Shown: positions 1,958 to 32,818 of the stretch, one piece after another
How positions within the stretch are numbered: position 1 is the stretch's first letter
Layout: the number at the start of each line of letters is the position of its first letter
IMG/VR virus record: IMGVR_UViG_2548876936_000010
DNA from: a virus
Lineage: Duplodnaviria > Heunggongvirae > Uroviricota > Caudoviricetes
Strand: one strand, 5' to 3'
DNA: 34,655 nt
Translations under genes and position numbers: made by a program
The notes under the pieces: model-generated
The model's database searches: none
What the model saw: only the letters and a program-made list of their open reading frames with translations
What the model was told of the DNA's origin: nothing

Positions 1958-4405
1958 TTAACCGTCATGCATCATGCTGGCACGGGCGCGCGCACGTTTA
2001 TCCCGCTCGTATTTTTCGAGCGCATCCTGTAACTGGCGGTCAAGCTGTGTCCCCGGCGCAGTACCACCCGTCAGGCTGATGTGATATTCGTTTTTACTCT
2101 GGTCTACATAAGAGCGGCCAGCCGGTGCCGTGACCGGCTGATAAGCCTGATAGCCTGCATAAGAGCTGGTCGCCGGAATATAACCACCGCTGCCATACGT
2201 GGCGGCTTGAGTTCTGGCGGCGGTCTGGTCAAGTGTGTCTGACTCTTTGTTGATAACACCGAGTTTTTCCAGTACCCAGTCAATACCACTGCGCAGTTTG
2301 TTGAACGCATTAAGCGGCAGCATCAGCGCGTCAGCCAGTGCCTGCCCGAACATGACGCCCGTGTCACGGCAACGGTTCAGGGTGTCCTGGGTGGCTTTGA
2401 CCGGGGCAATCAGGTTTTTAAACCACTGCCACGCGGCCTGTAACTTTTCACCCAGCCAGTCAAACACCGGCTTCAGTGGCGTGAACAGTTCCCCCACCGG
2501 CGCAAATGCCGCTTTCAGCCCTTCAACCACACCGCCAAAGAATGCGCTGACAGGCTCCCAGTATTTACGGATAAGCAACGCCCCGGCGACAATGGCGGCC
2601 ACCACGGCCACAACCGGCCAGCTAATCGCCCCGATGGCCGTCATAACAGCACTGCTAACCGTCGTGAAGATTGCCCCCATTGCGCCTGCTGCCGCGATAA
2701 TGGCATTGATGCCGGTGATAACCGGCCAGGCTACAAGACCAATGGTACCGATGATGCCAATAAGCGCCAGCGCGCCACCGACAATGAGGCCGATGGTTGA
2801 CGCCAGTGATTTGTTTTTCTGGATCCAGCCGTCGAGTTTTAACACATACTTTGTGGCCGTCTGAGTGAGCTTACGCAGTGCGCCTTCCTGCTGGTCAAAC
2901 AGGTCAGTCCCCACTGCCTCATAAGCGGACTGAAACTCTTTAAAGTCACCGCCTAGGTTGTCCTGCATGATATTTACCAGCTCGGCGGTCTTCCCGTCTG
3001 AGGCTTTAAACGCAGCGGTCAGTTTGTCCAGCTTTCCGGTTGAGGCGGCAGTCATCAGCACGGCGGCGGCTGAGCTGGCCTCCTCCCCGAAAATAGTTTT
3101 CATGTATTCAGCCTGCTGGGCAGTACCGAGCCGGTTTTTCTCAAAACTGGCCTGCATTTCTTTCAGAATGGTAAATATTGGCCGGGTGTTTCCCTTGCTG
3201 TCTGAGGTTTTCACTCCAAGCTCTTTGAGTGCATCCCATGCTTTTCCCGTCGGTGCCTGCAGGCGGCTTAACACGGCACGGCTTCCCGTCCCCGCCATTG
3301 AGCCTGTGATTTTTGCATCATGCAGCGCCCCGACCATTGCGGCGGTTTCTTCAATGCTGACACCGGCATTTTTTGCCACAGGTGCGGCATAGGTCAGCGC
3401 ATCGCTCATGCCGTCAAAATCGGCGGCGGTTTTGTTCATCGTCATGGAGAGAACATCCCCGATATGAGCGACCTTATCGTTTGAAAGCTGAAAGGCGGAT
3501 TTCATCCCCATCAGCAGGGCGGCGTTTTCTTCCATCGTGCGACGGTTCGCCAGCGCCATATTCAGCGTGACCGGCGTTGCCGCCTGAATGGCATCAACAT
3601 CCCCACCGGCTTTTGCAATGATAATCTGCGCACCGGCTGCATCATCCGCCGAGGCGGCGGTGTTGTCGCCGAGCTGGCGCGCCTGTTTGCGGAGCGCGGC
3701 CATTTCGGCGGAGTCTTTTGCCACGCCGAGCACAGCCTGTAATTCTGAGTTTTTCTGCGCAAACTCATAACCGGGCATCAGCAGCTTAACTCCGGCCATC
3801 GTTCCCGCCGCCGCAATCCCCACACCGGCAGCGCCCACTGAGGCCATATTTCCGGCCAGTTCCTTTCCGGCCTGATAACGCTGTTTGACTGCGTTAAGTT
3901 TTGCCTGTTGCGCACTGACACGCGCCAGCGCGTCACGCTGCCGGTTAAGCTGCGCGGTGGTTTCACTGATACGGTTTTTCAGCCCCTGCTCATCATGTGC
4001 AAGATTGCGGGTATTAATTCCCACAGCAGCCAGTTCCCGCTGCTGGCGTTTAACGGAATCCGTCAGGCGGTTATATTTCGCCTGTAAGTCCTCCGCCGCT
4101 CGCTTTGCGGATTCCAGCACTTTCGCCTGAGCACGGGTCGGACGTTCGGTATTTTTAAACTGTGTGGCAAGGGCTTCGGCTTCCAGCCGTGCCTTCTCAA
4201 GTGCATGACCAGTCACGGCGAGCTGTGCGCTGGTCTTGCGAAATCCCTCAATATGGGATGCGTGACCGTTCAGCTCGCGCAGTGATTTTTGTGTGTCCCG
4301 GATATCCCCCGACAGCGACTTGCTCGCTGTACGGATGGATTTAAACGGGCGGGATGCCTGGTCAACAGCCCTGAGCAATACCTGTAATTTTACATTGTTA
4401 CTCAT
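1958..4405 (-). CDS. T: Tail tape measure protein gpT (815 aa)
   Basis: 815-aa ORF, Ala/Gln-rich helical N-terminal part, long hydrophobic Gly/Ala-rich central segments, between E/E' and U; ATG at 4405. Confidence 0.9.
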   Translation of the reverse strand: MSNNVKLQVLLRAVDQASRPFKSIRTASKSLSGDIRDTQKSLRELNGHASHIEGFRKTSAQLAVTGHALEKARLEAEALATQFKNTERPTRAQAKVLESAKRAAEDLQAKYNRLTDSVKRQQRELAAVGINTRNLAHDEQGLKNRISETTAQLNRQRDALARVSAQQAKLNAVKQRYQAGKELAGNMASVGAAGVGIAAAGTMAGVKLLMPGYEFAQKNSELQAVLGVAKDSAEMAALRKQARQLGDNTAASADDAAGAQIIIAKAGGDVDAIQAATPVTLNMALANRRTMEENAALLMGMKSAFQLSNDKVAHIGDVLSMTMNKTAADFDGMSDALTYAAPVAKNAGVSIEETAAMVGALHDAKITGSMAGTGSRAVLSRLQAPTGKAWDALKELGVKTSDSKGNTRPIFTILKEMQASFEKNRLGTAQQAEYMKTIFGEEASSAAAVLMTAASTGKLDKLTAAFKASDGKTAELVNIMQDNLGGDFKEFQSAYEAVGTDLFDQQEGALRKLTQTATKYVLKLDGWIQKNKSLASTIGLIVGGALALIGIIGTIGLVAWPVITGINAIIAAAGAMGAIFTTVSSAVMTAIGAISWPVVAVVAAIVAGALLIRKYWEPVSAFFGGVVEGLKAAFAPVGELFTPLKPVFDWLGEKLQAAWQWFKNLIAPVKATQDTLNRCRDTGVMFGQALADALMLPLNAFNKLRSGIDWVLEKLGVINKESDTLDQTAARTQAATYGSGGYIPATSSYAGYQAYQPVTAPAGRSYVDQSKNEYHISLTGGTAPGTQLDRQLQDALEKYERDKRARARASMMHDG

Positions 4406-4825
4406 TCGTGTTTCCGCTTCGCCGGAGCGCCTTTTCGCGCCATGTGATGAGTTCGGTCAGGCTCATGGGATACAGTTCTGATGGCGGCCAGTGAAATATC
4501 ACTGCCACATCCGCCATCAGGTCATCGACCGACAGATTTTTCGGAAACGTCACTGCACCGAGTTCGGCGACAAAAAACCGACCACCTTACCGGCCAGCGC
4601 CACAAGGTCAGGCAGTTCCAGCGCGGCGACTTCCTGCTCGGTCAGCATCGGTGCCGTCATGCGCGGCAGCACCTTAATCAGTGCATCGACTTCTGAGTTT
4701 GCGACCGCAGCCAGACTGACACCGCGCAGCGTCCCCGCACTGGGTTTCATCAGAGTGACCTGTTCGATAACCTGCTCACCACGCTTGACCGGATTGTCCA
4801 GGGTAATCACATTTTCTTTGTTCAT
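4398..4825 (-). CDS. E+E': gpE+E' frameshift-extended tail chaperone (predicted 142 aa via -1 slip at TTTTTTG, - strand 4577..4571)
   Basis: Hand translation: codons GGT TTT TTG (G F L) in E frame; after -1 slip the frame stays open for 57 codons to TAA at 4400..4398, overlapping T start; same architecture as P2 E/E'. Confidence 0.7.
4550..4825 (-). CDS. E: Tail assembly chaperone gpE (91 aa)
   Basis: 91-aa ORF directly upstream of T; ends ...VVGFLSPNSVQ; contains slippery TTTTTTG near its 3' end. Confidence 0.85.
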   Translation of the reverse strand: MNKENVITLDNPVKRGEQVIEQVTLMKPSAGTLRGVSLAAVANSEVDALIKVLPRMTAPMLTEQEVAALELPDLVALAGKVVGFLSPNSVQ

Positions 4826-4881
4826 GGTTTTCTCACTTATGAATCGGGGTTAACCGGTCAGCCAGGCTGACCGGATGAAAA

Positions 4882-5400
4882 TCACAGGCCGATATTGCGG
4901 CGGTGTTGCTCCAGCCGGTCGACGCCGTTCACCTTCTCAATCATGTTGATGGTGTCGATTTCGACCAGCTCCTTACCGTCCATCGTCAGCCGGAAATAGG
5001 TGCAGACCACGGAGATTTTCGACTCGGTGTCTTCTCCCTGTTTGCCCTCGCCGGTGTCGATTTCTTTCTGACGTCCACGCATGACCACCTCGACGGCCAC
5101 CGTTTCGCCGGTATCGTCGCGCTGGTAAGAGCCAGCAAAACGAATCGGCACGGCATCCACGCCGGTTGCGGCGTAAAGCTCCCAGATAACCGAATCCGGG
5201 AAGCCCCCGAGCGACCACTCCATTGACAGCGCATCGTCATCAAGGCCGAGGTCTACCGGTGCGCTGCCGTTCATCCCCGCACCGCGATAGTTTTCAAGCT
5301 TACGGGTCAGTTTTGGCAGCGTGACGGACTTTGCAACGCCCTGATAGCTGTAGCCGTTCAGAAAGACGTTCATTAACTTGAGTTTGCGCGGCATTGCCAT
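4882..5400 (-). CDS. FII: Tail tube protein gpFII (172 aa)
   Basis: 172-aa ORF between FI and E; ATG at 5400; synteny and length as P2 FII. Confidence 0.85.
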   Translation of the reverse strand: MAMPRKLKLMNVFLNGYSYQGVAKSVTLPKLTRKLENYRGAGMNGSAPVDLGLDDDALSMEWSLGGFPDSVIWELYAATGVDAVPIRFAGSYQRDDTGETVAVEVVMRGRQKEIDTGEGKQGEDTESKISVVCTYFRLTMDGKELVEIDTINMIEKVNGVDRLEQHRRNIGL

Positions 5401-5412
5401 CGGTCAGGCTCC

Positions 5413-6603
5413 TTAATTGCTGTTAACCGAAGTGACCAGATTTGCCAGGTATTTATCGGTAATACGCTGGCGCAGGGTCAGGTTTTCGAGAGGAGGCACC
5501 GGTGTATAGTCGTAGTCGATATACAGTTTTCCGGCCTTGAGGGTTTCCGCATCGTTGGATTCTTCGCTGAACCAGCAGGTCGCATCCACGATATAGCCGT
5601 TTGTTTTCAGCTCACGGAATTTGGCATTAATGCCGTCAACGATGTCGCGAATCAGCGTTGCGGTGATGGGCTTATCCACAGCCCACATGTGCGCCTCAGC
5701 CATCGTGTCGGCCAGCACCTGCGCGGTGCGGGTGTAGTTTTCAAAGAGGAACAGCGGGTCATCAGAGCAGGTACGGTTACCCCAGAAGCGGAAACCGTCA
5801 CGGCGAATCAGCGTTGTGACGCCTGACTCGTTAAGCAGGTCAGCATCGGTGCCGGACTCCTGCAAATCCCAGAATACGGACGCGCTGATGCCGGTAACAC
5901 CGTTTACCCCGACGTTGGACAGCGTTTTATGCCAGCCCTGCTCCTGGTCGATTTTAGCGCGCAGACCCAGCGCACGGGCGGTGGCATACGCGGTGGCGGT
6001 GGTACTGGTGACCGTATCCCATGCGAGGAAATCCGGCCAGATGACCATCAGCTCACGCTGGCTGAAATTCTGGCGGTAGGCTTTCACCTCGGAAATGGTC
6101 TTACAGCCCCATGCGCTGATATATCCGAAAGCGCGCAGCTTCTGACAGACGGATGCCAGTGCAACAGCCACCTCTTTGGTATCCAGTCCCGGCACACCGA
6201 GAATACGCGGTTTAACACCGGTTACCGACTCCGCCGCCAGCAGGGCTTTTAGTCCGGTGTACTGACCGTTTTCGTCGGTGGTGCCGATGATATTGGAAAC
6301 GGTCTGCGCGAGTTTCGTTTCCTCGTCATCACCGGTGCCGTCTTCCACGCGCACGACAACGGTGACCGGTTTTGACTGGTCAGCGATGGCCTGCAACGAT
6401 GCCGCCAGCGTGCCTTTTTTACCGGCCTTTGCAATTGCGCTTTGCACATTGGTAATCAGCACCGGTTTATTGAGGGGGAAGGTTTCCGCATCCGCATCGC
6501 TGGCCGTGCAGACCATGCCGACAATGGCAGTGGATACGGTGGAAATGACGCGGGTGCCGTCGTTAATCTCCAGCACCTGCACGCCATGATGATAGTCACT
6601 CAT
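5413..6603 (-). CDS. FI: Contractile tail sheath protein gpFI (396 aa)
   Basis: 396-aa ORF, ATG at 6603, first gene of the FI-FII-E-T-U-D block. Confidence 0.9.
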   Translation of the reverse strand: MSDYHHGVQVLEINDGTRVISTVSTAIVGMVCTASDADAETFPLNKPVLITNVQSAIAKAGKKGTLAASLQAIADQSKPVTVVVRVEDGTGDDEETKLAQTVSNIIGTTDENGQYTGLKALLAAESVTGVKPRILGVPGLDTKEVAVALASVCQKLRAFGYISAWGCKTISEVKAYRQNFSQRELMVIWPDFLAWDTVTSTTATAYATARALGLRAKIDQEQGWHKTLSNVGVNGVTGISASVFWDLQESGTDADLLNESGVTTLIRRDGFRFWGNRTCSDDPLFLFENYTRTAQVLADTMAEAHMWAVDKPITATLIRDIVDGINAKFRELKTNGYIVDATCWFSEESNDAETLKAGKLYIDYDYTPVPPLENLTLRQRITDKYLANLVTSVNSN

Positions 6604-6698
6604 CCGTTTAACTCCGTGGTTAATGGGTGCAACTATTTTCTGTTGTGCAGAGCATAAGACGCTATTTGACCTGGCTGGTCAGTGGATGAAACAACAGA

Positions 6699-6727
6699 TA
6701 AAGAAAAGGCGGGCAATTCGCCCGCCT
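6699..6727 (-). terminator. Candidate intrinsic terminator (8-bp GC stem aggcgggc/gcccgcct, 5-nt loop, T-rich tail on - strand)
   Basis: Inverted repeat 6707..6714 / 6720..6727; - strand continues tttctttatc; lies between the cargo island and the FI start. Confidence 0.45.
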
Positions 6728-6786
6728 GTCCTGATTTGTACTCACTCATTTTCCGCCTGACAATTTACATAGCCCAAATGCTATCA

Positions 6787-6802
6787 AATCTGACAGTCTG
6801 CT
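6787..6802. repeat. Left copy of 16-bp perfect inverted repeat aatctgacagtctgct bracketing the FI-G cargo island
   Basis: Exact reverse complement of 9220..9235; a related direct copy at 9092..9116. Confidence 0.8.
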
Positions 6803-6933
6803 TTGAGCGAAAAGTGGACATTAGAGTTACAAAAGCAAGTTTAAATCATCCAAAATATTACAATGTCCTTATCTATCTGATATCGTTATGATAAAAAGCT
6901 CCTGAATATAATCGATAGTAGGTGGTTATTTCC

Positions 6934-7311
6934 ATGAAATCAATTTTAGAGGTTTTTACTCAAGGAAATACTAAAGAAAAACTGGCTGTTATCGCCGATC
7001 TCACAACCATTGCGGGAATATCGATTGCAACTATTATTGCTGGTTTGTTAACCCTAGTTGCAAAAACAGATAAACTAGATGTTGGAAATCTGTTTGGAGT
7101 TGTCATAATATCTCTGCTCGGATTGGCTGGTGTTTGCTGTTTTGTGGCCTTATTTATTTGGGTTATAACCCAAATGTCTAAACCATGGGGAACACCTCGG
7201 GGGGTTCAGCCCTTAGTTAAGTGTGCTATTTCCCTTATCTTTATCTGTATGTTTTTGCTGGCTGTCTTTACATTTTATGAGTTTATTTCTTCGATGAGCA
7301 TACGCTATTGA
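6934..7311 (+). CDS. Small hydrophobic membrane protein (125 aa, about 3-4 predicted TM helices), function unknown
   Basis: ATG at 6934 preceded by aggtgg; long hydrophobic stretches (IAGISIATIIAGLLTLVA, VVIISLLGLAGVCCFVALFIWVI, ISLIFICMFLLAVFTF); AT-rich relative to flanking phage genes. Confidence 0.6.
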   Translation: MKSILEVFTQGNTKEKLAVIADLTTIAGISIATIIAGLLTLVAKTDKLDVGNLFGVVIISLLGLAGVCCFVALFIWVITQMSKPWGTPRGVQPLVKCAISLIFICMFLLAVFTFYEFISSMSIRY

Positions 7312-7333
7312 ATATAAAATCAGCCCCCATAAC

Positions 7334-7918
7334 TTAAAAGAGACCTTCTATATCGACTTCAATGCCCAAATAACGGACTGTGCTTTCCAGTTTCTTATGG
7401 CCCAACAGAAGTTGGATCACCCGGAGACTCTTGGTTTTCTTGTAGATTAAGTAAGGTTTTGTTCTTCTCATGGAATGTGTGCTGTACAGCGAATCTTCGA
7501 GACCAAGCTTTTCTACCCACCCATGAAAAATTCGGTTGTATTGCCGGGTTGATATATGGTGGTTAGTTCCGACCCGAGAGCGGAACAGGAAGCCTTTACT
7601 ATGCCAGTTACCGAGCTTTATCAATGCAGTAACCGCTTCCCTTGTCCCTTTGGTTATCTCAAATTGGACAGGGCTGCCGGTTTTCTGTTGCAACACCGTT
7701 GCTCTGCTTGAGACAGAACTGCCATATGCAGCATCTGATACTTTGAGTTTGACCAAATCACAGCCCCGTAGCTTAGTGTCCAAAGCCATGTTGAACAGAG
7801 CTAGATCGCGTGTTTTACCTTCCAACTCAAGTCTAATCCGGATCCCCCAGATATGAGATATCTGAAGTGGCCTTTTTTGACCGATGGTACGGTCTTTATT
7901 CCACGGTGACGTTTTCAT
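7334..7918 (-). CDS. Small stand-alone tyrosine recombinase (about 194 aa, catalytic domain only)
   Basis: ATG at 7918 preceded by AGGAGA; candidate catalytic residues present: R in KLRGCDL, K in QQKTGSPV, HSMRRT (HxxR), LLGHKKLESTVRYLG (H and Y); no N-terminal arm/core-binding domain. Confidence 0.7.
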   Translation of the reverse strand: MKTSPWNKDRTIGQKRPLQISHIWGIRIRLELEGKTRDLALFNMALDTKLRGCDLVKLKVSDAAYGSSVSSRATVLQQKTGSPVQFEITKGTREAVTALIKLGNWHSKGFLFRSRVGTNHHISTRQYNRIFHGWVEKLGLEDSLYSTHSMRRTKPYLIYKKTKSLRVIQLLLGHKKLESTVRYLGIEVDIEGLF

Positions 7919-8024
7919 ATTCAAATCTCCTGCAATGTGGGAGATTTGAGTATGGTTGTCTCTCAAGAGCGAAAATAAGTCAACTATTACTAGTTGTTGC
8001 GCATGTACGTATTCTGTCAATTAA

Positions 8025-8867
8025 TTATTGACAATCATCAATTCTGGAATGATCAAAATCATCATATCGAATTATAGTCTGGTTGACTGTATCTATTGTT
8101 GGTGTCATTTCTGTTATAATATCCTGATAACCTAAAGAGTTAAATACATTTACTAAGGCCTCACACCGAAGGGCCGTAGCAATTACAAAATTATAAATTG
8201 CCAGCCGTTTATTTTCTTGTTTAACTGCAAGAATGAATTCGATAGCAGTATTTTCATCACTTTGGATTGCATTATATAGAGATACTATATTTACCATATC
8301 ATCAGAGAATGTATGTATTGAATCACAAAGGGGAACGTAATGGGCATGATAGTGTGTTTCCCAGCCAATTAATTCAAAAAGTTTTCTGGTTCCTGGATAT
8401 TCAGGTGTATTTGGCCACAATCTATTAAATAGATCAGTTAGTTCTTTTCCCATGCGAATCCTTTCATTTGCTGCTGGATTAGTCATTCCTTTGGATTTTA
8501 AACACTCCAGCCACCGTTTTCCATTACTATGAACTAATTTCTTACTAGCCTTGAGTAATGCTTGTGCATTTTCGCCATCATCTATTGCTATATAAAATTG
8601 ATTGGCAGCCTGTTCTATTATAACCCTAGCTAATACTTCCGATGCTGAAAAGGCTCCTATATTCAAAGAAGAGATAGCCTGATTACTAAGTTCATTCAGT
8701 ACATTAAAGTACTGTAAGACCATCAATTTTTGTTCCACACCCTTTAGGTTGTCTATTTTATTTTTATGCTCCTCAAATTTTGCATGGATATATTTATTTA
8801 TCGCGGCTATTTTTTTTACATCTTCGTCAAGATCAAACGGGCAACGTCCAAACAATTCTTTTTTCAT
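8025..8867 (-). CDS. Hypothetical protein (280 aa), AT-rich cargo gene, function unknown
   Basis: ATG at 8867 preceded by AGGAGA with 6-nt spacer; ends 4 nt upstream of the recombinase gene; no motif I can recognise. Confidence 0.65.
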   Translation of the reverse strand: MKKELFGRCPFDLDEDVKKIAAINKYIHAKFEEHKNKIDNLKGVEQKLMVLQYFNVLNELSNQAISSLNIGAFSASEVLARVIIEQAANQFYIAIDDGENAQALLKASKKLVHSNGKRWLECLKSKGMTNPAANERIRMGKELTDLFNRLWPNTPEYPGTRKLFELIGWETHYHAHYVPLCDSIHTFSDDMVNIVSLYNAIQSDENTAIEFILAVKQENKRLAIYNFVIATALRCEALVNVFNSLGYQDIITEMTPTIDTVNQTIIRYDDFDHSRIDDCQ

Positions 8868-8905
8868 ATATTTCTCCTGTTGTACAAGCTTCCATAAGTT
8901 GGCAG

Positions 8906-8911
8906 ATTATA
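8906..8911 (-). promoter_or_regulatory. Candidate -10 hexamer TATAAT about 38 nt upstream of the 280-aa gene start
   Basis: - strand reads TATAAT at 8911..8906; no good -35 found, so weakly supported. Confidence 0.25.
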
Positions 8912-9091
8912 CACTGAAGATTACCTATAAATAGCTGTGCGGGATAGCAGATCAGTGCAAGAAGTACAACCAAGTGAATGTGCGTATTCAGATACCTGGC
9001 CTAACGTTCGCGATAGCCGTCCCCTGCACGAAGCCATATATTAGATGTATTAGCTCAGACCTTATCTGACAGGTTGAGTAGGTAGAATCTA

Positions 9092-9116
9092 ATCAAAGCT
9101 GACAGTCTGGTTTGGA
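9092..9116. repeat. Direct-orientation degenerate copy (atcaaaGctgacagtctgGtttgG) of the left repeat
   Basis: About 22 of 25 positions match 6783..6807; a further partial copy atctgacag at 9064..9072. Confidence 0.6.
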
Positions 9117-9211
9117 CTGTGAGTTCAACCGATGGATGCAACACACAGCGATCTACGGACATTACTAGCATAGCTGTGTATTAATCATCGGGAAGCAGGT
9201 CAGTCCGCTCC

Positions 9212-9253
9212 TAGCACAGAGCAGACTGTCAGATTAGGCTTTACTCTGTGCTA
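9212..9253. repeat. 10-bp perfect inverted repeat (tagcacagag / ctctgtgcta) enclosing the right 16-bp repeat copy (9220..9235)
   Basis: Arms at 9212..9221 and 9244..9253; 9220..9235 agcagactgtcagatt is the exact reverse complement of 6787..6802. Confidence 0.75.
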
Positions 9254-9287
9254 TAGATACGTTAGCTCACTCCAGAGATCATACAAC

Positions 9288-9815
9288 TTATTGCGGCATT
9301 TCCGGCCATTCAGGATTTGCAGGATCCACACGGCTGACCAGAACACTGTAGCGTTCCCATGCTTCCAGTCGGCTACGCTCCTCATCTGTTGCCATATTCA
9401 GTCTGACAGAGCGTTCCAGTGGCTGAATGATAGTTTCAGCTTCGGAACGCAAAGCTGACTTCTGTAATTCCGCCAGTTGCAGCTGTTCGTCTGCCGTATA
9501 AATCCGCTTAATCACGGCACCATCCTTAAACATCCATTTACCTGAGTCATCAGCACGTCGGTTGGCGGTAATATCAGGAACCTCGACAACGCTAAAACCT
9601 TCAGGGTTGAGCGTTGAAGCATCTCTGGTGATGCCGACAATTATATTATTCTCATCGTAAACAATCTTTATCGTGTCTTCCTGAAAATTACTTACTTCCT
9701 CATACCAGTTTTTTCCCTCTTCGGACCATAACCAGATAACATCAAAATTTTTTGTCAGTTGATATTGGGCAACAGTTTTTGGATTACCCGCAGTAATATT
9801 TTTTAAATGCTGCAT
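9288..9815 (-). CDS. G: Tail fibre assembly protein gpG (175 aa)
   Basis: 175-aa ORF immediately downstream of H; ATG at 9815; length as P2 G. Confidence 0.8.
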
Positions 9816-9818
9816 AAA

Positions 9819-11792
9819 TTACACCTGTGCGACGTTATACCATGTGCCATTGATGTATTTTTGTATTGGTCTGAATACTGCGGGGTCATCACCATCGACT
9901 TCACCGACAATACCAAGCCCGGTAATTACGTGCCCTGCTTTCTCATACATCACCCCTTTCTGCATGGTCTGGACAACACGTGTGCCAAGTCTGACATCTC
10001 TCACATAGCGGGAATCAAAGTTACCGTAATCCGAGGGATTAACACGCCCCGTAATATTTATGGTTTTATTACTTTGAACGCTTCCGGAGACAAAGCGCAT
10101 AACATGGACGCTATTAGCATAAACATCCAGATTACCATCACCATTTTGTTTAAAGCCCGTGTCATTATCACCCAAAACAATCGAATTACCGCCAAGAGCA
10201 CTGGATGTTCCTATACCCAGAGCACCATTCAATTGACCACCAGATAATGATAACGCCCCAACATCAGCAGCAGTCGGTTTAATGTACGAACTGTAAATTA
10301 CATATACAGTTCCATCTGTCAGGCCTGTTGGTTTATTCGCTGTATAAGTTGGTGATGTATGAATCGTTACGCTGGCGTTACTGGTATAATCCCACTGAAT
10401 ATTAACACCTGTGGCGTAATTACCTATTTCAACATAAACATCATAGGTATCACCGGATGTATTCACCCATGCAAAATTAGTAAATCCAACCGATGTCCGT
10501 CGCCATAACGCACCAGTAAGACCTTTTGGATTTCCATTTCCCGCACGAAGAACAAGTTCAGATATACCAGCCTGCATAGGGGAGTTAACATTATATCCGG
10601 CACCACCAATCAGGCTTATGTAAACCACGGAACTGGCCTGGGGCATGGTTACAGTTGCCAGCCTGAACCATCCTGTACCACCACTAAAAGACATGGTTGT
10701 TGAATTTGTTGCTCCAATATTGCGCAGGAATAATCTTTTATCAGGAATATCCGCACCGTTCTGATCTTTCTGAAGACGTTTTTCAGCATTGTCATAGGCA
10801 GACTTCACCGCTTTTGGTGTTGCGGCCAGTGTTTCAGAATCACTGTTGGTGGCGCTACTGAGCTGAACAAGCCCTTTTCGCGCTGTGGTGGCATCCTGTG
10901 CAGTGTATTTCCCGTTAGCAAGGTCATACGCGACCTTTACCGCCTTTGGCGTTGCGGCCAGCGTTTCAGAATCGCTGTTGGTGGCGCTACTGAGCTGAAC
11001 AAGACCTTTTCGCGCTGTGGTGGCGTCCTGTGCAGTGTATTTCCCGTTAGCAAGGTCATACGCGGCCTTTACCGCTTTTGGTGTTGCGGCGAGCGTTTCA
11101 GACGTGCTGTTGGTGGCACTACTGAGTTGGACAAGACCTTTTCGCGCTGTGGTGGCATCCTGCGCAGTATATTTCCCGTTAGCAAGGTCATACGCGGCCT
11201 TTACCGCTTTCGGCGTTGCAGCCAGTGTTTCAGACGCGCTGTTGGTTGCACTGCTTAACTGAGTAAAACCTTTTGCGGTCAGCGAGGCGTCCGGGTGACG
11301 TCGTGACTGTTCATGCTCTGCAATTTTGTCATCAACGTAATCCTGCGTTGCCATCACCGTTGTGGTGTCAATGGTCAGCTCCACTGAGGCCACACTGCTG
11401 ACGATGATGACCATGCGGCAGGTCTGCGAACGCCCTGAGCCTTCGGCAAGAGCGGGTTTATAACTTTCAGCCATGTTCGCCACGGCAATTAGCGTTCCCG
11501 CATCATCGTACAGGCCAAGCTCACGCATCCAGAAACCGCCCACCTCCGGCGGAATAACCAGCTCTGCGATAATATAATTACTGTTTCGTTTGTCCTGGCT
11601 GATTTTGTTCAGCGCATGTCGCCAGACTTCGCGGATAAGCCCGGTCTGTCCGGCATCCGGGACAGGCAATTTACCACCGCCATCCCCGACGGCCATCGTG
11701 GTAATGTTGACCTTCCGCCCTCCCGGTGCGGTTGCCGCTGCCAGCTTTGCTGCACCGGCAGTGGTGATAACGGTTTTGAATTTTGTGCTCAT
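9819..11792 (-). CDS. H: Tail fibre protein gpH (657 aa) with internal 44-aa tandem repeats
   Basis: 657-aa ORF; N-terminus MSTKFKTVITTAGAAKLAAATAP...; repeat KGLVQLSSATNS.SETLAATPKAVKAAYDLANGKYTAQDATTAR; Gly/Ser/Thr-rich C-terminal half. Confidence 0.9.
   Translation of the reverse strand: MSTKFKTVITTAGAAKLAAATAPGGRKVNITTMAVGDGGGKLPVPDAGQTGLIREVWRHALNKISQDKRNSNYIIAELVIPPEVGGFWMRELGLYDDAGTLIAVANMAESYKPALAEGSGRSQTCRMVIIVSSVASVELTIDTTTVMATQDYVDDKIAEHEQSRRHPDASLTAKGFTQLSSATNSASETLAATPKAVKAAYDLANGKYTAQDATTARKGLVQLSSATNSTSETLAATPKAVKAAYDLANGKYTAQDATTARKGLVQLSSATNSDSETLAATPKAVKVAYDLANGKYTAQDATTARKGLVQLSSATNSDSETLAATPKAVKSAYDNAEKRLQKDQNGADIPDKRLFLRNIGATNSTTMSFSGGTGWFRLATVTMPQASSVVYISLIGGAGYNVNSPMQAGISELVLRAGNGNPKGLTGALWRRTSVGFTNFAWVNTSGDTYDVYVEIGNYATGVNIQWDYTSNASVTIHTSPTYTANKPTGLTDGTVYVIYSSYIKPTAADVGALSLSGGQLNGALGIGTSSALGGNSIVLGDNDTGFKQNGDGNLDVYANSVHVMRFVSGSVQSNKTINITGRVNPSDYGNFDSRYVRDVRLGTRVVQTMQKGVMYEKAGHVITGLGIVGEVDGDDPAVFRPIQKYINGTWYNVAQV
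10791..11276. repeat. About 3.7 in-frame tandem copies of a 132-bp unit inside tail fibre gene H
   Basis: Unit starts ccgc(t/c)tttgg at 10807, 10939, 11071, 11203 (period 132 bp), near-identical copies. Confidence 0.85.
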
Positions 11793-13238: not shown

Positions 13239-13586
13239 TCAACTCACAGGGATGGTTAACGAAAGTGGCTGGCCGGTGTCGTTGTGCTGGCCGGTTAACG
13301 TGACCGTCATTCGCCCGTCAAAACTGCGCTCAGTGGTGACGGATGACAGGGTGACGCGGGGTTCCCATTTCAGCACCGCCATGTAACAGGCGACCTTAAT
13401 CTGCAACTCAAGCGCCGGGGTCTGCGGCTGGTCAATCATTGATGCCAGCAACGAGCCGTAATCACGACGCATCACCCGTGAGCCGACCGGTGTGCGCAGG
13501 ATATCGCCGATACTCTGGCTGATATGCTCAAGGTCAGTGACAGTCAGGCCATCACTGCGATTCATTCCGAGATAACGCGCTGTCAT
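13239..13586 (-). CDS. W: Baseplate wedge protein gpW (115 aa)
   Basis: 115-aa ORF; ATGA overlap with V stop; length as P2 W. Confidence 0.8.
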   Translation of the reverse strand: MTARYLGMNRSDGLTVTDLEHISQSIGDILRTPVGSRVMRRDYGSLLASMIDQPQTPALELQIKVACYMAVLKWEPRVTLSSVTTERSFDGRMTVTLTGQHNDTGQPLSLTIPVS

Positions 13587-14218
13587 AAAGGACTCCCGGT
13601 TGTGCCGCCGCTGTCGCCGGGGTGTTTATGGGTATGCAGTACCTTACCGTTTGATGAGAGTTCACCGCCGGTGTGTTCAATGTTGCCGCGCATCGTCCCG
13701 CCCTTCTGCACTTCCAGCGTGCCGGTAGTCAGTTTGTTAGTGCAGACCACTTCTGGTGTGTCCAGGGTTACACGGGTTGACGCTTTCACCGTGACCACCG
13801 GTACCGTGGCAGTAACAGAATCAGAAGCCGTCACGCTGGCCGTTTTAATTCCGCTTACCGTGAGTGCACTGGTTTCGGGTTCATACTCAATCACCGCCCC
13901 GTCAGGGAAACGGATATGCCGGGCATCAGCCGACGCAGACGGCGCAGGGTTATCGCCGGAATAAATCCCCGGCAGAACGAACGCCGTGTCGAGTTCACCG
14001 CCCACGGCCAGAATCAGCACCTGTTCCCCCACGGAAGGTGCCCACCATGTGCGCGAACGTCCTGCGCGATGGGTCAGCCACTGAAGCCAGTCGGTGCACA
14101 TGCCGCCGGTCTGCACGCGGCAGCGACCGGCGTTAAGGTCGGTTTCGACGATAATGCCGGTGCGAATCATGTTGCGCAGTGCGCGCGCGAGTTCCTGAAT
14201 ATTTGCGAGAGTGTTCAT
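13583..14218 (-). CDS. V: Baseplate spike protein gpV (211 aa from ATG at 14218)
   Basis: ORF 13583..14236; internal ATG gives MNTLANIQELARALRNMIRTG...; Gly-rich C-terminus. Confidence 0.8.
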   Translation of the reverse strand: MNTLANIQELARALRNMIRTGIIVETDLNAGRCRVQTGGMCTDWLQWLTHRAGRSRTWWAPSVGEQVLILAVGGELDTAFVLPGIYSGDNPAPSASADARHIRFPDGAVIEYEPETSALTVSGIKTASVTASDSVTATVPVVTVKASTRVTLDTPEVVCTNKLTTGTLEVQKGGTMRGNIEHTGGELSSNGKVLHTHKHPGDSGGTTGSPL

Positions 14219-14301
14219 GCATGTGAGATTGCACAATATATAAAAGTTATGCTATCTGGATTCATTTGTAGAACTACCAGACAACATTCAAGGAGAGCGT
14301 A

Positions 14302-15087
14302 ATGGTCAGCTATAATGTGACTAATGTGTGGGGGCTAATCGTTTTTTTCCTTTGTAGCTTTGCAGTATTAGCATTTTTTAGCTTTGGTAAAAGTAACCTT
14401 ATGAGGCTTATTGCACATTATTTCAATTTTGGATATTCAGACAAAAAATTAAAAAGACTTGACCGCGAGTGGCGCGACATTCAACTATTTAAAATAATTA
14501 ACGGAATCAATGTATCAGGCATTGAAAATGTGAGAATGATACAGCAGGGACTGATTGATGGAAAACTAAAAACATCGTATTTTTTCCTTACTCGCATCTG
14601 GGGTGACATAACAAAACCACCACACATAATTAAAACAATAATTGTAATTCTGGCTAGTATTTTTTACATTCTTCTCGCATGTTACATACACAACGAACAA
14701 TCCGTTATAGTAAGGGATGCCATAGGCATACCATATAAAAACATGATGTACTATGTTTATAGTGACAAAGTTCTTTTATCCTTCAAAAATAAAGCAGTTG
14801 AATTTAATAAAACTTATAGCCTTGCCGATTGCAAGAGACTGCAAAACGTATTTATAAAAGACACACTTCCTGAGATCGCCTGCAATAAGCTCTTACAGCT
14901 AAACGAGGAGGACTCCGAATGGTTAAGTCAGGAGATTAAAGATAATAACAGTCACAAAAAAGCATTATTAATACTATCCCTCGTCTATTTCACTTCAGGT
15001 CTGGTTATATTCCTGTCATATACAAAATTCTTTTACGCCAATAAGAAGGTTTTAGAATACAAAGCATCAAATAAAAATCACTCATAA
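14302..15087 (+). CDS. AT-rich membrane protein (261 aa, three predicted TM helices), opposite strand to flanking late genes; moron
   Basis: ATG at 14302 with AGGAGA 5 nt upstream; TM segments VWGLIVFFLCSFAVLAFFSF, IIKTIIVILASIFYILLACYI, ALLILSLVYFTSGLVIFLSYT; marked AT-richness. Confidence 0.65.
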   Translation: MVSYNVTNVWGLIVFFLCSFAVLAFFSFGKSNLMRLIAHYFNFGYSDKKLKRLDREWRDIQLFKIINGINVSGIENVRMIQQGLIDGKLKTSYFFLTRIWGDITKPPHIIKTIIVILASIFYILLACYIHNEQSVIVRDAIGIPYKNMMYYVYSDKVLLSFKNKAVEFNKTYSLADCKRLQNVFIKDTLPEIACNKLLQLNEEDSEWLSQEIKDNNSHKKALLILSLVYFTSGLVIFLSYTKFFYANKKVLEYKASNKNHS

Positions 15088-15093
15088 ACCTCT

Positions 15094-15128
15094 AAACATT
15101 GAGCGCCCAGCATGGCCGCTCAATGTTT
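15094..15128. terminator. 12-bp perfect hairpin (aaacattgagcg / cgctcaatgttt, 11-nt loop) between the convergent moron and gene S; candidate bidirectional terminator
   Basis: Arms 15094..15105 and 15117..15128, directly after the moron stop (15085..15087) and after the S stop on the other strand. Confidence 0.45.
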
Positions 15129-15158
15129 AATTGCGCATCAGCCTCTGCCTGGATAAAA

Positions 15159-15611
15159 CTAACGCTCAAGGTGAGCCAGGATAATCTCTTCAATCATCTG
15201 CACATCCTCACAGGTAAAGCCGAGCAGAGGACGCGCCGGATAATCAATTTTCTTACCGTCTTTCCGGGTTTCTTCCGACAGACCGAACTGATGCACACTG
15301 GCGATTTTCGGCGACTTCCCGCCGTAAAATTCCATTGATGCCTGTTCCGGGCTGGCGCGGATATGCAAAAAACGACTGGTGATAAGTTTCGCAAACATTT
15401 TTCGCTTAACACGACCGGTCTTTTTTCTGGCGCGCTGCTGCTGGCGTGGCGCGTAGGGTGTACCGTCCAGGGCTTTCTGTGCCATCACCCGGCGCTGCTG
15501 ACTCTGCCGCAGACGTTTCGCCAGTTCGGTGCTCAGTCGCCGACGCCCTGACGGTGACAGTGATTCAATCAGTCCGGTCAGACGGTCTTCAAAACGCTTA
15601 AACTCATTCAT
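15159..15611 (-). CDS. S: Tail completion protein gpS (150 aa)
   Basis: 150-aa ORF; overlaps R; length as P2 S. Confidence 0.8.
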   Translation of the reverse strand: MNEFKRFEDRLTGLIESLSPSGRRRLSTELAKRLRQSQQRRVMAQKALDGTPYAPRQQQRARKKTGRVKRKMFAKLITSRFLHIRASPEQASMEFYGGKSPKIASVHQFGLSEETRKDGKKIDYPARPLLGFTCEDVQMIEEIILAHLER

Positions 15612-24366: not shown

Positions 24367-25074
24367 CTATATATACTTCCTTTTTACTCTACTTAATTCT
24401 ATCACTGATGAGGAGTGACAAAATGACAAATTAATAGTATCGATATAATCCAAAATTTGACTCTCAACCTCAATAAAAATATTTTTGGGCCCATTACTAA
24501 TCGATATACCGATTTCATCCAAAACAGCCATCATTTTTCTCTGATGAGTTTTATATTTATAGTCTTTATTTTCCTCTGTAATATGTGCATTGGCTTCCTC
24601 AATAACACATTTGATTCTAGATATTATTTCTAGATAATCTCTCGAAACAGATATATCACCGCCTTGCGCTTCAGGGAACATAACCCTATACCATCTAAAA
24701 AAATTAACTTTCTCTGGATAGATGCTACTTCTTTTAGTTAACTCAGCACTTGCAAATTCTCTAAACATCGTCAGATGACTAGTGTAATTACTATTATTAT
24801 TATTTTTAACTCCAGCGTTATATGTCATCAAAGCAATCATAACACCAAAAACGGTAACAAAAGTTGTTATAAGCCATCCAAACGCCTGAAAATACATTAC
24901 TATACCAGATGTTTTTTCCGCAAAAAATTTTAAGCACTGGCTATCGAAGCATATATCACGCTCATATAGCTTTTCATTCTGAATAGTTTCAAAAAGAGAA
25001 ATTAGCGAAAAAATCAAAAAAAGAGCTGACGACACACCGACAATATATTTGAGAAGTCTAATATTTGCATTCAT
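24367..25074 (-). CDS. Two-TM membrane protein (235 aa) translationally coupled to the RT; candidate effector
   Basis: ATG at 25074 overlaps the RT stop (ATGA, 25071..25074); TM1 YIVGVSSALFLIFSLISLF, TM2 GIVMYFQAFGWLITTFVTVFGVMIALM, then about 150-aa soluble domain; AT-rich. Confidence 0.7.
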   Translation of the reverse strand: MNANIRLLKYIVGVSSALFLIFSLISLFETIQNEKLYERDICFDSQCLKFFAEKTSGIVMYFQAFGWLITTFVTVFGVMIALMTYNAGVKNNNNSNYTSHLTMFREFASAELTKRSSIYPEKVNFFRWYRVMFPEAQGGDISVSRDYLEIISRIKCVIEEANAHITEENKDYKYKTHQRKMMAVLDEIGISISNGPKNIFIEVESQILDYIDTINLSFCHSSSVIELSRVKRKYI

Positions 25075-26261: not shown

Positions 26262-26512
26262 ACCATTCAAATTCAAAGTTACGTACGGTCTTCCCATACT
26301 CAAGGGTGGAACAGCAGAGATGCTTACATCAACAATTGTCAGCAACAGCCTCTGCTATCTTTCGACCGTACGTAATGTCGTCGGCTACGGCACCATCGTA
26401 GTTGACGACGGTGGGGCCTCGCTGATAGGTCCATAGTGGACGCTTTTTTGTAAAAGCAAAAACTGACAATTTAATGTTGTTGACTGCCGCATACCAAGCG
26501 AATCGCTGGTGC
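26262..26512 (-). ncRNA. Candidate structured non-coding leader of the RT (possible retron msr/msd-like RNA)
   Basis: 12-bp perfect inverted repeat ttacgtacggtc (26279..26290) / gaccgtacgtaa (26364..26375) with nested 7-bp repeat agcagag/ctctgct; adjacent hairpin 26377..26409; no ORF. Confidence 0.4.
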
Positions 26513-32624: not shown

Positions 32625-32818
32625 TTCCAGACCCTCCGGCTTTTCAGAAAGGTCAGAGCCTTCTTTAACGGACTCTGTTTTTTGGTGCGGATAATGATTC
32701 CCTTGCGTCCCTTCCCGTGGGTGATGGTAAAGTCAATCGCCCTGGGGCTTTCGTTACGCAATAACTGAGCAATACAACGAGGCTCGTTCATCCTTTCCAC
32801 CTTAAGCCGCACGGCCAT
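32621..32818 (-). CDS. Small basic protein between cox and B (about 56-65 aa; start uncertain)
   Basis: ORF 32621..32911 overlaps cox; internal ATGs at 32818 and 32791 are plausible starts; P2 orf78-position. Confidence 0.3.
   Translation of the reverse strand: MAVRLKVERMNEPRCIAQLLRNESPRAIDFTITHGKGRKGIIIRTKKQSPLKKALTFLKSRRVWK

What the first reader, a model, noticed from the sequence alone, without database searches (positions are those of the whole stretch)
14237..15158. Opposite-strand AT-rich three-TM membrane protein inserted between baseplate gene V and tail gene S
The 261-aa ORF (14302..15087) is transcribed against the late operons, has a strong RBS (AGGAGA), three well-separated hydrophobic helices (N-terminal, middle, C-terminal), and is followed by a 12-bp perfect hairpin shared with the end of S. 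This is the P2 orf30 position. A gene expressed independently of late transcription is a candidate lysogenic-conversion or superinfection-exclusion function.
Basis: partly seen in the sequence, partly recalled or inferred. Interest (0 to 1): 0.55.

Follow-up and report, generated by a model that had tools for sequence, protein, structure and literature searches.

The report
Phage P2 orf30 membrane gene
This is the long-known but still uncharacterised gene orf30 of bacteriophage P2, a three-helix inner-membrane protein; relatives sit in the same place in distant P2-like prophages and survive alone in Enterobacter chromosomes, which makes it a good but untested candidate for a prophage gene that protects its host.

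Summary
The ORF at 14302..15087 (+) is bacteriophage P2 orf30 itself: 99.6% amino-acid identity, in a prophage that is about 97% identical to P2. It is AT-rich (34% GC against about 58% in the flanks) and convergent with S. An AAGGAG ribosome-binding site precedes it and a strong hairpin follows it. The P2 record annotates that hairpin as the O-operon terminator.

The gene is therefore already known, annotated "nonessential", with no known function.

New here:
- Orf30 belongs to a small, fast-evolving family confined to Enterobacterales (44 representatives at 50% identity). The family is linked to Pfam DUF6216.
- Members only 23-35% identical occupy the same V-S slot, on the same opposite strand, in P2-like prophages of Serratia, Yersinia and others.
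- Enterobacter keeps a solo chromosomal copy under strong purifying selection, with a relic of the phage pV intergenic region upstream.
- The predicted topology is N-out/C-in, with a conserved cytoplasmic helical loop and a periplasmic beta/alpha domain carrying a conserved cysteine pair.
- No structural or defence-family match was found.
- No convincing sigma-70 promoter was found, so expression in lysogens is unproven.

The best guess is a single-protein exclusion or defence factor acting at the inner membrane. This is inferred, not shown.

The parts
14302..15087 (+). orf30 coding sequence (261 codons plus stop). Predicted three-transmembrane inner-membrane protein, N-out/C-in: TM1 ~9-29, cytoplasmic loop 30-107, TM2 ~108-130, periplasmic loop 131-219 (Cys177, Cys194), TM3 ~220-240, basic C-tail.
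   Evidence: ORF list. 99.6% aa identity to P2 Orf30, AAD03281.1. Full-length match to PHROG 2407, E = 5.5e-149. Hydropathy and charge bias. AF2 model with pLDDT 83.5.
14290..14296 (+). Shine-Dalgarno sequence AAGGAGA, 6 nt upstream of the ATG.
   Evidence: Sequence. Unchanged in 6 of 8 alleles; AAGGAG reads GAGGAG in the other two.
14219..14301 (.). V-orf30 intergenic region (83 nt). It carries the late promoter pV on the - strand, and any orf30 promoter must also lie here. It is nearly invariant among alleles whose ORFs differ by up to about 12% nt.
   Evidence: Alignment of 8 alleles. Only weak +-strand promoter-like matches, the best being TGCACA(14230)-17-TG-TATCTG(14253).
14260..14287 (-). 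Activator (Ogr) binding site of pV, transferred from the P2 record (AF063097 10239-10266). It ends 2 nt before the orf30 Shine-Dalgarno sequence.
   Evidence: P2 annotation mapped onto the window through the 97.6% identical alignment. The CACAAC half-site is conserved upstream of all family members and in the empty slot.
15093..15129 (.). Inverted repeat (17-nt arms, 13-bp perfect outer stem, 3-nt gap) between the convergent stops of orf30 and S. The P2 record annotates it as the putative rho-independent terminator of the O operon. It probably works in both directions.
   Evidence: -21.3 kcal/mol, z = -5.9. P2 record. The stem is conserved in 8 alleles, with changes only in the inner stem and loop.
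14219..15158 (.). The whole cassette that replaces the 66-bp V-S spacer of empty-slot P2-like phages.
   Evidence: Comparison with pro483 / Yersinia phage P37. In E. coli complete genomes, 458 of 1572 genomes with the junction carry it.
13583..14218 (-). Flank: baseplate spike gene V, first gene of the V operon.
15159..15611 (-). Flank: tail completion gene S, last gene of the O operon.

Best explanation
**Shown: what the gene is.** The gene is bacteriophage P2 orf30, carried by a P2-like prophage. It encodes a protein that works without a partner gene. It belongs to a small family confined to Enterobacterales, related to DUF6216, that has stayed in the V-S slot of P2-like phages while diverging to about 20-35% identity.

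**Inferred: topology.** The protein inserts in the inner membrane N-out/C-in. It has a conserved basic helical loop of about 78 aa in the cytoplasm. It also has a beta/alpha domain of about 89 aa in the periplasm, probably locked by a Cys177-Cys194 disulfide.

**Inferred: most likely function, committed to here.** It is a prophage accessory ('moron') gene that benefits the host rather than virion production. It most likely acts as a single-protein phage-exclusion factor at the cytoplasmic membrane, blocking genome entry of heterologous phages in the way P22 SieA, T4 Imm and HK97 gp15 do. Less likely, it kills or depolarises the infected cell (abortive infection).

**Inferred: expression.** Expression would come from a weak promoter, possibly H-NS-silenced, interleaved with pV. 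It would be shut off late in infection by promoter occlusion. In the Serratia/Yersinia-type arrangement it would also be shut off by antisense read-through from the O operon.

**Confidence split.** Identity and family membership about 0.97. Host-beneficial accessory role about 0.7. Phage exclusion or defence specifically about 0.35-0.4.
For: **Identity.** The protein is 99.6% identical to P2 Orf30, and the 2.2-kb region is 97.6% identical in DNA.

**Solo gene tied to the slot.** In all 7 further divergent prophage contexts examined, the homologue lies between V and S on the opposite strand with no conserved partner. These are Serratia L005 and the remnant L006, Yersinia L009-12, and L023, L025, L026 and L028. 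Orf30 identity is 23-35% where V is 68-83% and S 44-55%.

**Host-level selection.**
- The Enterobacter clade (P0104, P0111, P0117; P0104 alone appears in 341 collection blocks) sits at one fixed chromosomal locus with no V or S remnants.
- About 75 nt upstream of it is homologous to the prophage pV intergenic region.
- Its dN/dS is 0.09-0.30.
- Intact copies persist in a Serratia rubidaea remnant and in the defective P2 prophage of E. coli B.

**Selection pattern among E. coli alleles.** dN/dS is 0.4-0.5 overall, against 0.1-0.15 for V and S. Both soluble loops are constrained (about 0.3), while TM1 and TM3 reach 1 or more.

**Topology.** The positive-inside rule holds across 29 members: net charge +5.0 in loop 1, -0.4 in loop 2, +2.1 in the C-tail. 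Cys194 is present in 29 of 29 members and Cys177 in 26 of 29. The AF2 model has pLDDT 83.5.

**Parallels within P2.** fun(Z) has the same layout: terminator, opposite-strand AT-rich gene, activator site. old, tin and fun are all exclusion genes. The TO and Z/fun slots are validated defence hotspots (PMC9122126, PMC9519451).

**Other cargo in the slot.** All other cargo found in the V-S slot is also AT-rich and unrelated.

**Analogue.** P22 SieA is a three-TM inner-membrane protein, convergent with the end of the late operon. It exists as syntenic types less than 30% identical, and its best-conserved motif is cytoplasmic (bioRxiv 10.1101/2023.08.15.553423).
Against: - No exclusion phenotype has ever been assigned to orf30. 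The P2 record calls it only 'nonessential'.
- No convincing sigma-70 promoter or annotated transcript start exists, so prophage expression is unproven.
- There is no match to any PADLOC model or to Pfam at threshold.
- There is no homology to SieA (hhalign probability 0.2%).
- The most conserved part is cytoplasmic. That fits a sensor or partner-binding role at least as well as a periplasmic block.
- From classical P2 genetics (my knowledge, not tested here), P2 vir and the heteroimmune P2 Hy dis plate on P2 lysogens. Orf30 therefore does not strongly exclude P2-type injection.
- 71% of E. coli P2-like prophages lack the gene, so it is dispensable.
Confidence: 0.4

Rival explanations
1. Abortive-infection-type membrane effector. 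Orf30 senses an infection cue through its conserved cytoplasmic loop, then permeabilises or depolarises the inner membrane and kills the cell before progeny are made. It would work like RexB, SLATT or other 2TM effectors, but as a single protein.
For: - It is a single-gene membrane protein in a prophage cargo slot.
- The cytoplasmic loop is the best-conserved region.
- There is a weak hit of a Serratia member to the PADLOC SLATT model 'RTasSLATT' (E = 0.0025).
- UniRef gives the Enterobacter cluster P0104 a SLATT-type name.
- AT-rich genes liable to silencing are typical of toxic immunity genes (abstract of bioRxiv 10.64898/2026.09.05.749240, seen).
Against: - No SLATT hit in Pfam for any member, even at E <= 5.
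- The PADLOC hit is one of 8 proteins, at marginal E, and lies over TM segments.
- A conserved periplasmic domain with a Cys pair is not expected for a purely cytoplasmic sensor-effector.
- Long-term chromosomal fixation under strong purifying selection in Enterobacter shows that it is well tolerated.
Confidence: 0.15
2. Lysogenic conversion unrelated to phages. The protein would be an envelope factor, for example immunity to a bacteriocin or contact-dependent toxin, a modulator of a host inner-membrane transporter or signalling complex, or a stress or colonisation factor.
For: - The domesticated solo copy in Enterobacter, at a fixed locus between an ECF-sigma/DsbD cluster and an MCP/sucrose cluster, shows host benefit with no phage context.
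- Conserved domains on both sides of the membrane suit a transmembrane adaptor or sensor.
- No defence-family signal was found.
Against: - Known cargo of the sister P2 slots is overwhelmingly anti-phage (PMC9122126, PMC9519451, PMC13586616).
- The fast divergence (23-35% identity against V at 68-83%) and TM-helix dN/dS of 1 or more look like an arms race.
- No similarity to known immunity proteins. The colicin-K immunity Pfam hit (E = 0.11, one member) is noise.
Confidence: 0.2
3. A function in the phage life cycle. Orf30 would be a nonessential helper of P2's own infection, for example in lysis timing, tail or baseplate assembly at the membrane, or DNA injection. On this reading it stays next to V and S because it works with them.
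For: - Strict linkage to the V-S junction in at least 8 diverged P2-like prophages, although P2-like genomes offer several cargo slots.
- N-out/C-in three-TM topology is also the class I holin topology.
- The pV activator site abuts its ribosome-binding site.
Against: - It is on the opposite strand to all late operons. In the Serratia/Yersinia type it is read antisense by the O operon.
- P2 already has holin Y, LysA, LysB and LysC.
- 71% of E. coli P2-like prophages, and viable phages such as pro483 and P37, lack it.
- Enterobacter keeps it, under purifying selection, with no phage genes at all.
- At 261 aa with two folded loops it is unlike holins.
Confidence: 0.1
4. Neutral passenger or decaying gene with no current function.
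For: - No phenotype is known.
- It is annotated nonessential.
- It is absent from most P2-like prophages.
- No promoter was found.
Against: - All 8 alleles keep an intact 261-codon frame, with dN/dS of 0.4-0.5 overall and about 0.3 in the loops.
- The Enterobacter orphans have dN/dS of 0.09-0.3.
- Architecture and Cys pair are conserved down to about 17% identity.
- An open frame of 786 nt in 34% GC DNA is not expected by chance.
Confidence: 0.05

Closest known systems
Bacteriophage P2 Orf30 (AAD03281.1; PHROG 2407; 'uncharacterized 30.4 kDa protein')
   Same: It is the same gene. Protein identity is 99.6%, the S-orf30-V position and orientation are the same, and so are the hairpin and the pV region.
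   Different: There is one amino-acid difference. The surrounding prophage carries different cargo in the other two slots: a type IV retron instead of old/tin, and a DUF5677 protein plus a recombinase instead of fun(Z).
Pfam DUF6216 (PF19723), an uncharacterised proteobacterial membrane-protein family of about 270 positions
   Same: Length is similar and the alignment is collinear over the full length. 10 of 29 family members hit it. The Sodalis member P0030 passes the gathering score (28.9 against 27.3 bits; residues 10-255 against profile positions 10-265 of 270).
   Different: The window protein and the other E. coli alleles give no hit at all at E <= 1. The link is transitive only. DUF6216 has no known function, so it adds no mechanism.
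P22 SieA superinfection-exclusion protein
   Same: Works-like analogue. SieA is a prophage-encoded inner-membrane protein with three predicted TM helices that acts alone. Its gene is convergent with the last gene of a late operon. It exists as syntenic sequence types less than 30% identical with the same TM pattern, and its best-conserved motif is on the cytoplasmic side (bioRxiv 10.1101/2023.08.15.553423).
   Different: There is no detectable homology (hhalign probability 0.2%). SieA is about 100 aa shorter (162-164 aa) and lacks the large periplasmic beta/alpha domain. SieA has a mapped promoter and a demonstrated block of DNA injection. Orf30 has neither.
P2 lysogenic-conversion genes fun(Z), old and tin
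   Same: They are AT-rich, nonessential and opposite in orientation to the neighbouring operons. fun(Z) has the identical layout of late-operon terminator, gene, and activator site of the next late promoter. Their slots are variable cargo sites in P2-like phages (PMC3091744, PMC9122126, PMC9519451).
   Different: They are unrelated in sequence and are soluble proteins with known exclusion phenotypes (T5, lambda, T-even). old-tin has mapped transcript starts. The Orf30 family, unlike them, is recurrently found in its slot across genera.

Membership tests
P2 Orf30 / PHROG 2407 | Full-length sequence match to P2 Orf30 | tested here: met
   99.6% aa identity over 261 of 261 residues. phrog_2407 E = 5.5e-149, positions 1-261 of 261.
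P2 Orf30 / PHROG 2407 | Located between tail gene S and baseplate gene V, opposite strand, in a P2-like genome | tested here: met
Pfam DUF6216 (PF19723) | Score at or above the Pfam gathering threshold (27.3 bits) | tested here: not met
   The window protein gives no hit at E <= 1. A profile-linked relative, P0030, scores 28.9 bits over its full length, and 10 of 29 relatives hit below threshold. The relationship is therefore at superfamily level only.
P22 SieA-type superinfection exclusion | Sequence or profile homology to SieA | tested here: not met
   hhalign of the family profile against P22 SieA: probability 0.2%.
P22 SieA-type superinfection exclusion | Inner-membrane protein with three TM helices that acts alone | tested here: inconclusive
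   Three TM segments and a consistent positive-inside topology are predicted. It is a solo gene in all contexts. Localisation has not been measured.
P22 SieA-type superinfection exclusion | Expressed from the prophage and blocks DNA entry of superinfecting phage | not testable with these tools
   This needs transcript mapping and infection assays. No promoter of at least 9/12 was found.
Known anti-phage defence systems (PADLOC-DB v2) | Match to any defence-protein HMM | tested here: not met
   0 families at E <= 1 for the window protein. Relatives give 0, apart from one marginal SLATT-model hit (E = 0.0025, P0050).
SLATT 2TM pore-forming effectors | SLATT domain match; two adjacent TM helices plus partner enzyme genes (SMODS, SLOG, RT) | tested here: not met
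   No Pfam SLATT hit for 10 members at E <= 5. TM2 and TM3 are about 90 aa apart. No partner gene appears in any locus. The only pointers are a UniRef cluster name and one marginal PADLOC hit.
Class I holins (three TM, N-out/C-in) | Small size (about 70-110 aa) with short loops, encoded in the lysis cassette, transcribed late | tested here: not met
   261 aa with loops of about 78 and 89 aa. It is on the opposite strand to the lysis genes, and P2 holin Y is elsewhere.
P2-type lysogenic-conversion cargo (old, tin, fun(Z) kind) | AT-rich, nonessential, oriented against neighbouring operons, in a variable slot | tested here: met
   PMC3091744.
P2-type lysogenic-conversion cargo (old, tin, fun(Z) kind) | Confers a phenotype on the lysogen | not testable with these tools
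   No phenotype is reported in the P2 record or in the papers found.

The most novel reading that the evidence does not exclude
Orf30 and its DUF6216-like relatives are a previously unrecognised single-protein anti-phage system of the inner membrane, acting by exclusion or by membrane-based abortive infection. The system has been genetically locked to the spike-gene (V) / tail-completion (S) junction of P2-like phages since before the enterobacterial genera split. It evolves in an arms race, and Enterobacter has domesticated it as a chromosomal immunity gene. That would make the V-S junction the third, so far unexplored, defence slot of P2-like phages.
Probability: 0.3. Interest if true: 0.6.

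Novelty: already known. Interest (0 to 1): 0.35.

Why it matters
P2 is a founding model temperate phage, and orf30 is one of its few sizeable genes with no function. The two other AT-rich cargo slots of P2-like prophages (old/tin and Z/fun) have each yielded many new anti-phage systems once they were tested. The V-S slot has not been examined.

This analysis shows three things about its commonest occupant:
- It is a conserved, fast-evolving three-TM family present in about 8% of complete E. coli genomes (458 of 5426).
- The same family occupies the same slot in Serratia, Yersinia and other P2-like prophages.
- Enterobacter retains it alone, under purifying selection.

Together these turn an 'orphan ORF' into a concrete, cheaply testable candidate for a new membrane-level immunity or lysogenic-conversion function. 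If it has no phenotype, that is also useful, because it would mark a slot-bound gene with another role.

Tried and rejected
**Family and defence databases**
- Pfam, NCBIfam and PADLOC scans of the window protein gave nothing usable.

**Structure**
- The afdb50 library was unavailable.
- A PDB sequence-profile search returned only spurious GST hits at E = 0.01.

**Specific candidate relatives**
- SieA homology is rejected.
- SLATT is rejected as unsupported.

**Alternative cargo in the slot**
- The other slot cargo (L013 247 aa, L014 357 aa, L016 126+106 aa, phiCTX orf15) was tested against the family HMM and is unrelated.
- Pfam and PADLOC scans of the E. coli cargo (L013, L014, L016) gave only marginal HNH-like hits.

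**Searches that failed or could not be completed**
- The search for related loci with the 29-sequence alignment failed because no stretch was conserved enough.
- The preprint that mentions DUF6216 (bioRxiv 10.64898/2026.09.05.749240) could not be opened. Only term counts were obtained.
- The Christie & Calendar and Casjens & Grose reviews are not held.

**Readings considered and set aside**
- The self-exclusion reading, in which Orf30 blocks P2-type injection through gpV, was considered. It was down-weighted because P2 vir and P2 Hy dis plate on P2 lysogens (classical knowledge, not tested here).
Full report
**1. The observation**

The window holds an ATG-initiated ORF at 14302..15087 on the + strand (261 aa). 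It lies between V (13583..14218, -) and S (15159..15611, -).
- GC falls from 0.55-0.61 in the flanks to 0.33-0.35 over the ORF. The ORF itself is 33.6% GC.
- AAGGAG lies 6 nt before the ATG.
- Kyte-Doolittle analysis gives three hydrophobic segments at about 9-29, 108-130 and 220-240.
- Five nucleotides after the stop codon there is an inverted repeat, 15093-15109 / 15113-15129. Its arms are 17 nt and 94% complementary, with a 13-bp perfect outer stem. It folds at -21.3 kcal/mol (z = -5.9; no shuffle out of 200 folds as well).

**2. Identity**

The 2.2 kb around the ORF is 97.6% identical to bacteriophage P2 (AF063097). The protein is 99.6% identical to P2 Orf30, and PHROG 2407 ('unknown function') matches end to end.

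The P2 record calls orf30 'nonessential'. It annotates the hairpin as the putative rho-independent terminator of the O operon. It also places the activator (Ogr) binding site of the late promoter pV between V and orf30. Mapped to the window, that site is 14260-14287, ending 2 nt before the Shine-Dalgarno sequence.

The whole window is a P2-like prophage, about 97% identical to P2 over the structural and replication genes. Its cargo differs at the Z/fun and old/tin slots, and its immunity end is different.

The literature already lists 'orf30' as one of three sites where P2-like phages carry horizontally acquired genes (PMC3091744). It notes that W-phi and L-413C lack the gene (PMC2771037) and that R18C has another ORF there (PMC6823313). 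The feature is therefore already known. Its function is not.

**3. Boundaries and regulatory anatomy**

Phages with an empty slot (pro483, Yersinia phage P37) have a 66-bp V-S spacer. Homology to the window stops exactly at the V start codon and resumes at the S stop codon. The differing unit is therefore 14219..15158. It includes a pV region of a different sequence type and its own terminator.

Among eight alleles (window, P2, E. coli B, five phage isolates):
- The 83-nt upstream region is almost invariant, although the ORFs differ by up to about 12% nt.
- The hairpin stem is conserved.

I found no sigma-70-like promoter of at least 9/12 on the + strand upstream of orf30. The best weak candidate is TGCACA(14230)-17-TG-TATCTG(14253), which would be interleaved with the pV core promoter. 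The P2 record gives transcript starts for old-tin but none for orf30. Expression in lysogens is therefore an assumption, not a finding.

**4. The family**

The word-indexed search found only close alleles and one 39% relative. An exhaustive HMMER profile search of 1.84 billion representatives found 44 proteins at E <= 1e-3. Most are full-length, at 250-272 aa.

The named members are all from Enterobacterales and all are 'hypothetical'. They come from Escherichia, Enterobacter, Serratia, Pectobacterium, Yersinia, Cronobacter, Sodalis and Buttiauxella.

The 29-sequence alignment shows the following:
- The three-TM pattern is kept throughout.
- The cytoplasmic loop carries the strongest conservation (Q61, G68, N70, D76, G87, F94 and the FG.IG motif).
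- A Cys pair sits in the second loop: C194 in 29 of 29 members and C177 in 26 of 29.
- Charge bias is +5.0 in loop 1, -0.4 in loop 2 and +2.1 in the C-tail. This gives an N-out/C-in topology with loop 2 in the periplasm.

Ten of 29 members hit Pfam DUF6216 collinearly. The Sodalis member passes the gathering score (28.9 against 27.3 bits, full length). The E. coli alleles give no hit. The relationship is therefore at superfamily level and carries no functional information.

Among 50,697 sequenced phage records, only the 21 records with P2-type alleles contain a member.

**5. Genomic context of relatives (the main new result)**

In every divergent prophage context I could fetch, the homologue lies between V and S on the strand opposite to them, as a solo gene of 34-38% GC. 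The contexts are:
- Serratia nevei (L005)
- a Serratia rubidaea prophage remnant that keeps only ogr, V, the homologue and a fragment of S (L006)
- Yersinia enterocolitica (L009-L012)
- four further lineages (L023, L025, L026, L028)

These proteins are 23-35% identical to the window protein, whereas V is 68-83%, W 56-77% and S 44-55% identical.

Two architectures exist:
- **P2 type** (window, L023, L025, L028). The pV region is AT-rich. The orf30 homologue is spaced 60-125 nt from S (821 nt in L028, where two extra small genes intervene), and in the P2 alleles a hairpin terminator lies in that gap.
- **Second type** (L005, L006, L009, L026). This keeps the GC-rich hairpin and pV region seen in empty slots. 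In L005, L009 and L026 the gene abuts or overlaps the S stop (-23 to +3 nt); L006 retains only a fragment of S. O-operon transcription must then run antisense across it.

In Enterobacter, three 90%-identity clusters (P0104, P0111, P0117; P0104 alone is in 341 collection blocks) sit at one fixed chromosomal locus. It lies between an ECF-sigma/DsbD cluster and an MCP/sucrose cluster, with no phage genes nearby. No V or S remnant is detectable there. However, about 75 nt upstream of the gene is clearly homologous to the prophage V-orf30 intergenic region, so the orphan is a relic of a P2-like prophage. Its dN/dS is 0.09-0.30.

E. coli B also keeps an intact copy in its defective P2 prophage, next to the deletion that fuses S to the portal gene.

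**6. Population data in E. coli**

The V-S junction is found in 1572 of 5426 complete genomes. Of these, 458 carry orf30 and most of the rest have the empty 66-bp spacer.

Rare alternatives, all at 31-37% GC and unrelated to Orf30, are:
- a 247-aa soluble protein (the R18C type)
- a 357-aa protein with two C-terminal TM helices
- a pair of small ORFs, one of them HNH-like

Pseudomonas phage phiCTX has an unrelated AT-rich soluble ORF in the slot.

Among the E. coli and Yersinia-phage alleles, dN/dS is 0.4-0.5, against 0.1-0.15 for V and S. By region it is about 0.3 in both soluble loops, 0.46 in TM2, and 1.2 and 1.6 in TM1 and TM3, the last two from small counts.

**7. Structure**

With 35 sequences, AlphaFold2 gives pLDDT 83.5 and pTM 0.66. 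The model has:
- a long TM1 helix
- a small helical cytoplasmic domain (residues 48-94)
- TM2
- a four-stranded sheet plus two short helices (141-198) that carry the two cysteines
- a long helix that becomes TM3

**8. Interpretation**

*Shown:*
- The gene's identity.
- That it is a solo gene.
- Its fidelity to the slot.
- Purifying selection acting on it.
- Its independent survival in host chromosomes.

*Inferred:*
- The topology.
- The disulfide.
- A host-beneficial accessory role.

The most likely specific role is phage exclusion at the inner membrane. Four lines of reasoning point that way:
- The sister cargo slots of P2-like phages are experimentally validated defence hotspots (PMC9122126, PMC9519451, PMC13586616).
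- P2's other opposite-strand AT-rich genes (old, tin, fun) are all exclusion genes. fun(Z) has the same terminator / gene / activator-site layout.
- The family evolves much faster than its structural neighbours.
- P22 SieA offers a close functional analogue. It is a three-TM inner-membrane protein, convergent with the end of a late operon, with syntenic types less than 30% identical and a conserved cytoplasmic motif (bioRxiv 10.1101/2023.08.15.553423). It is not homologous to Orf30.

Against this reading:
- No phenotype, promoter or known-family match exists.
- Classical P2 genetics argues that P2 lysogens do not exclude P2-type injection.

Rivals are a membrane abortive-infection effector, a non-phage envelope function, a nonessential phage life-cycle role, and a neutral passenger. 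The Enterobacter orphan and the opposite-strand arrangement argue against a life-cycle role. The selection data argue against a neutral passenger.

**9. Verdict**

The finding is a correct rediscovery of P2 orf30, so it is already known as a feature and ordinary in that sense. The comparative evidence assembled here raises it from an 'orphan ORF' to a defined, slot-bound, domesticated membrane-protein family, and it makes a defence or lysogenic-conversion function directly testable.

Interest is moderate (0.35). The most novel reading not excluded is a new single-protein membrane immunity system marking a third P2 defence slot. I give that a probability of about 0.3.

Noticed in passing
window 24367-26345 (- strand): The old/tin (TO) cargo slot of this prophage carries a type IV retron instead. 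The reverse transcriptase is at 25071-26345 (PADLOC RT_IV, E = 1e-176; Pfam RVT_1) and its 2TM effector at 24367-25074 (PADLOC 2TM_IV, E = 5e-85).
   Followed up: partly
window 27313-28317 (+ strand): A 334-aa DUF2806 protein (Pfam E = 1.4e-19) lies in the same AT-rich TO region (about 35-42% GC). It has no PADLOC match.
   Followed up: no
window 6819-9202: The Z/fun slot does not hold fun(Z). It holds a 280-aa DUF5677 protein (8025-8867, -) and a 228-aa Phage_integrase-family recombinase (7334-8020, -). GC is 35-42%.
   Followed up: partly
window 9203-11066 and 32792-34655: The tail-fibre assembly gene G is only 85% identical to P2, and the C-terminal part of H is not alignable. The last 1.9 kb, where P2 has cox/C/int, has no P2 match, so this is a heteroimmune relative of P2.
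   Followed up: no
L007/L030/L033 (Enterobacter chromosomes), gene at 8001-8792 / 5001-5792: The solo Orf30-family gene sits at a fixed chromosomal locus. Its dS against other strains (0.54-0.57) is 3-4 times that of the flanking MCP and ECF-sigma genes (0.12-0.19). This suggests allele replacement by recombination at a domesticated locus.
   Followed up: partly
L015 (E. coli B chromosome) 4403-5188 and 6490-9422: The defective P2 prophage of E. coli B keeps an intact orf30 next to an S'-portal' deletion junction. Its TO slot carries an AAA ATPase plus 'ABC-three component system' genes. A preprint on H-NS silencing of immunity in BL21 mentions 'P2-like' and 'DUF6216' but could not be read.
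   Followed up: partly
L005, L009, L026 versus window, L023, L025, L028: P2-like phages have two pV-promoter / O-terminator architectures. One has a GC-rich hairpin next to V, also seen in the empty slots. The other is the AT-rich P2 type, with a separate hairpin after S in the P2 alleles. In the first type the Orf30 homologue overlaps or abuts the S stop, so late transcription must read through it antisense.
   Followed up: partly
L016 3897-4639 and L028 4875-5377: Some V-S slots hold small same-strand ORFs instead of, or in addition to, the Orf30 homologue. L016 has a 106-aa protein with a marginal HNH match plus a 126-aa partner. L028 has 107-aa and 53-aa ORFs.
   Followed up: no
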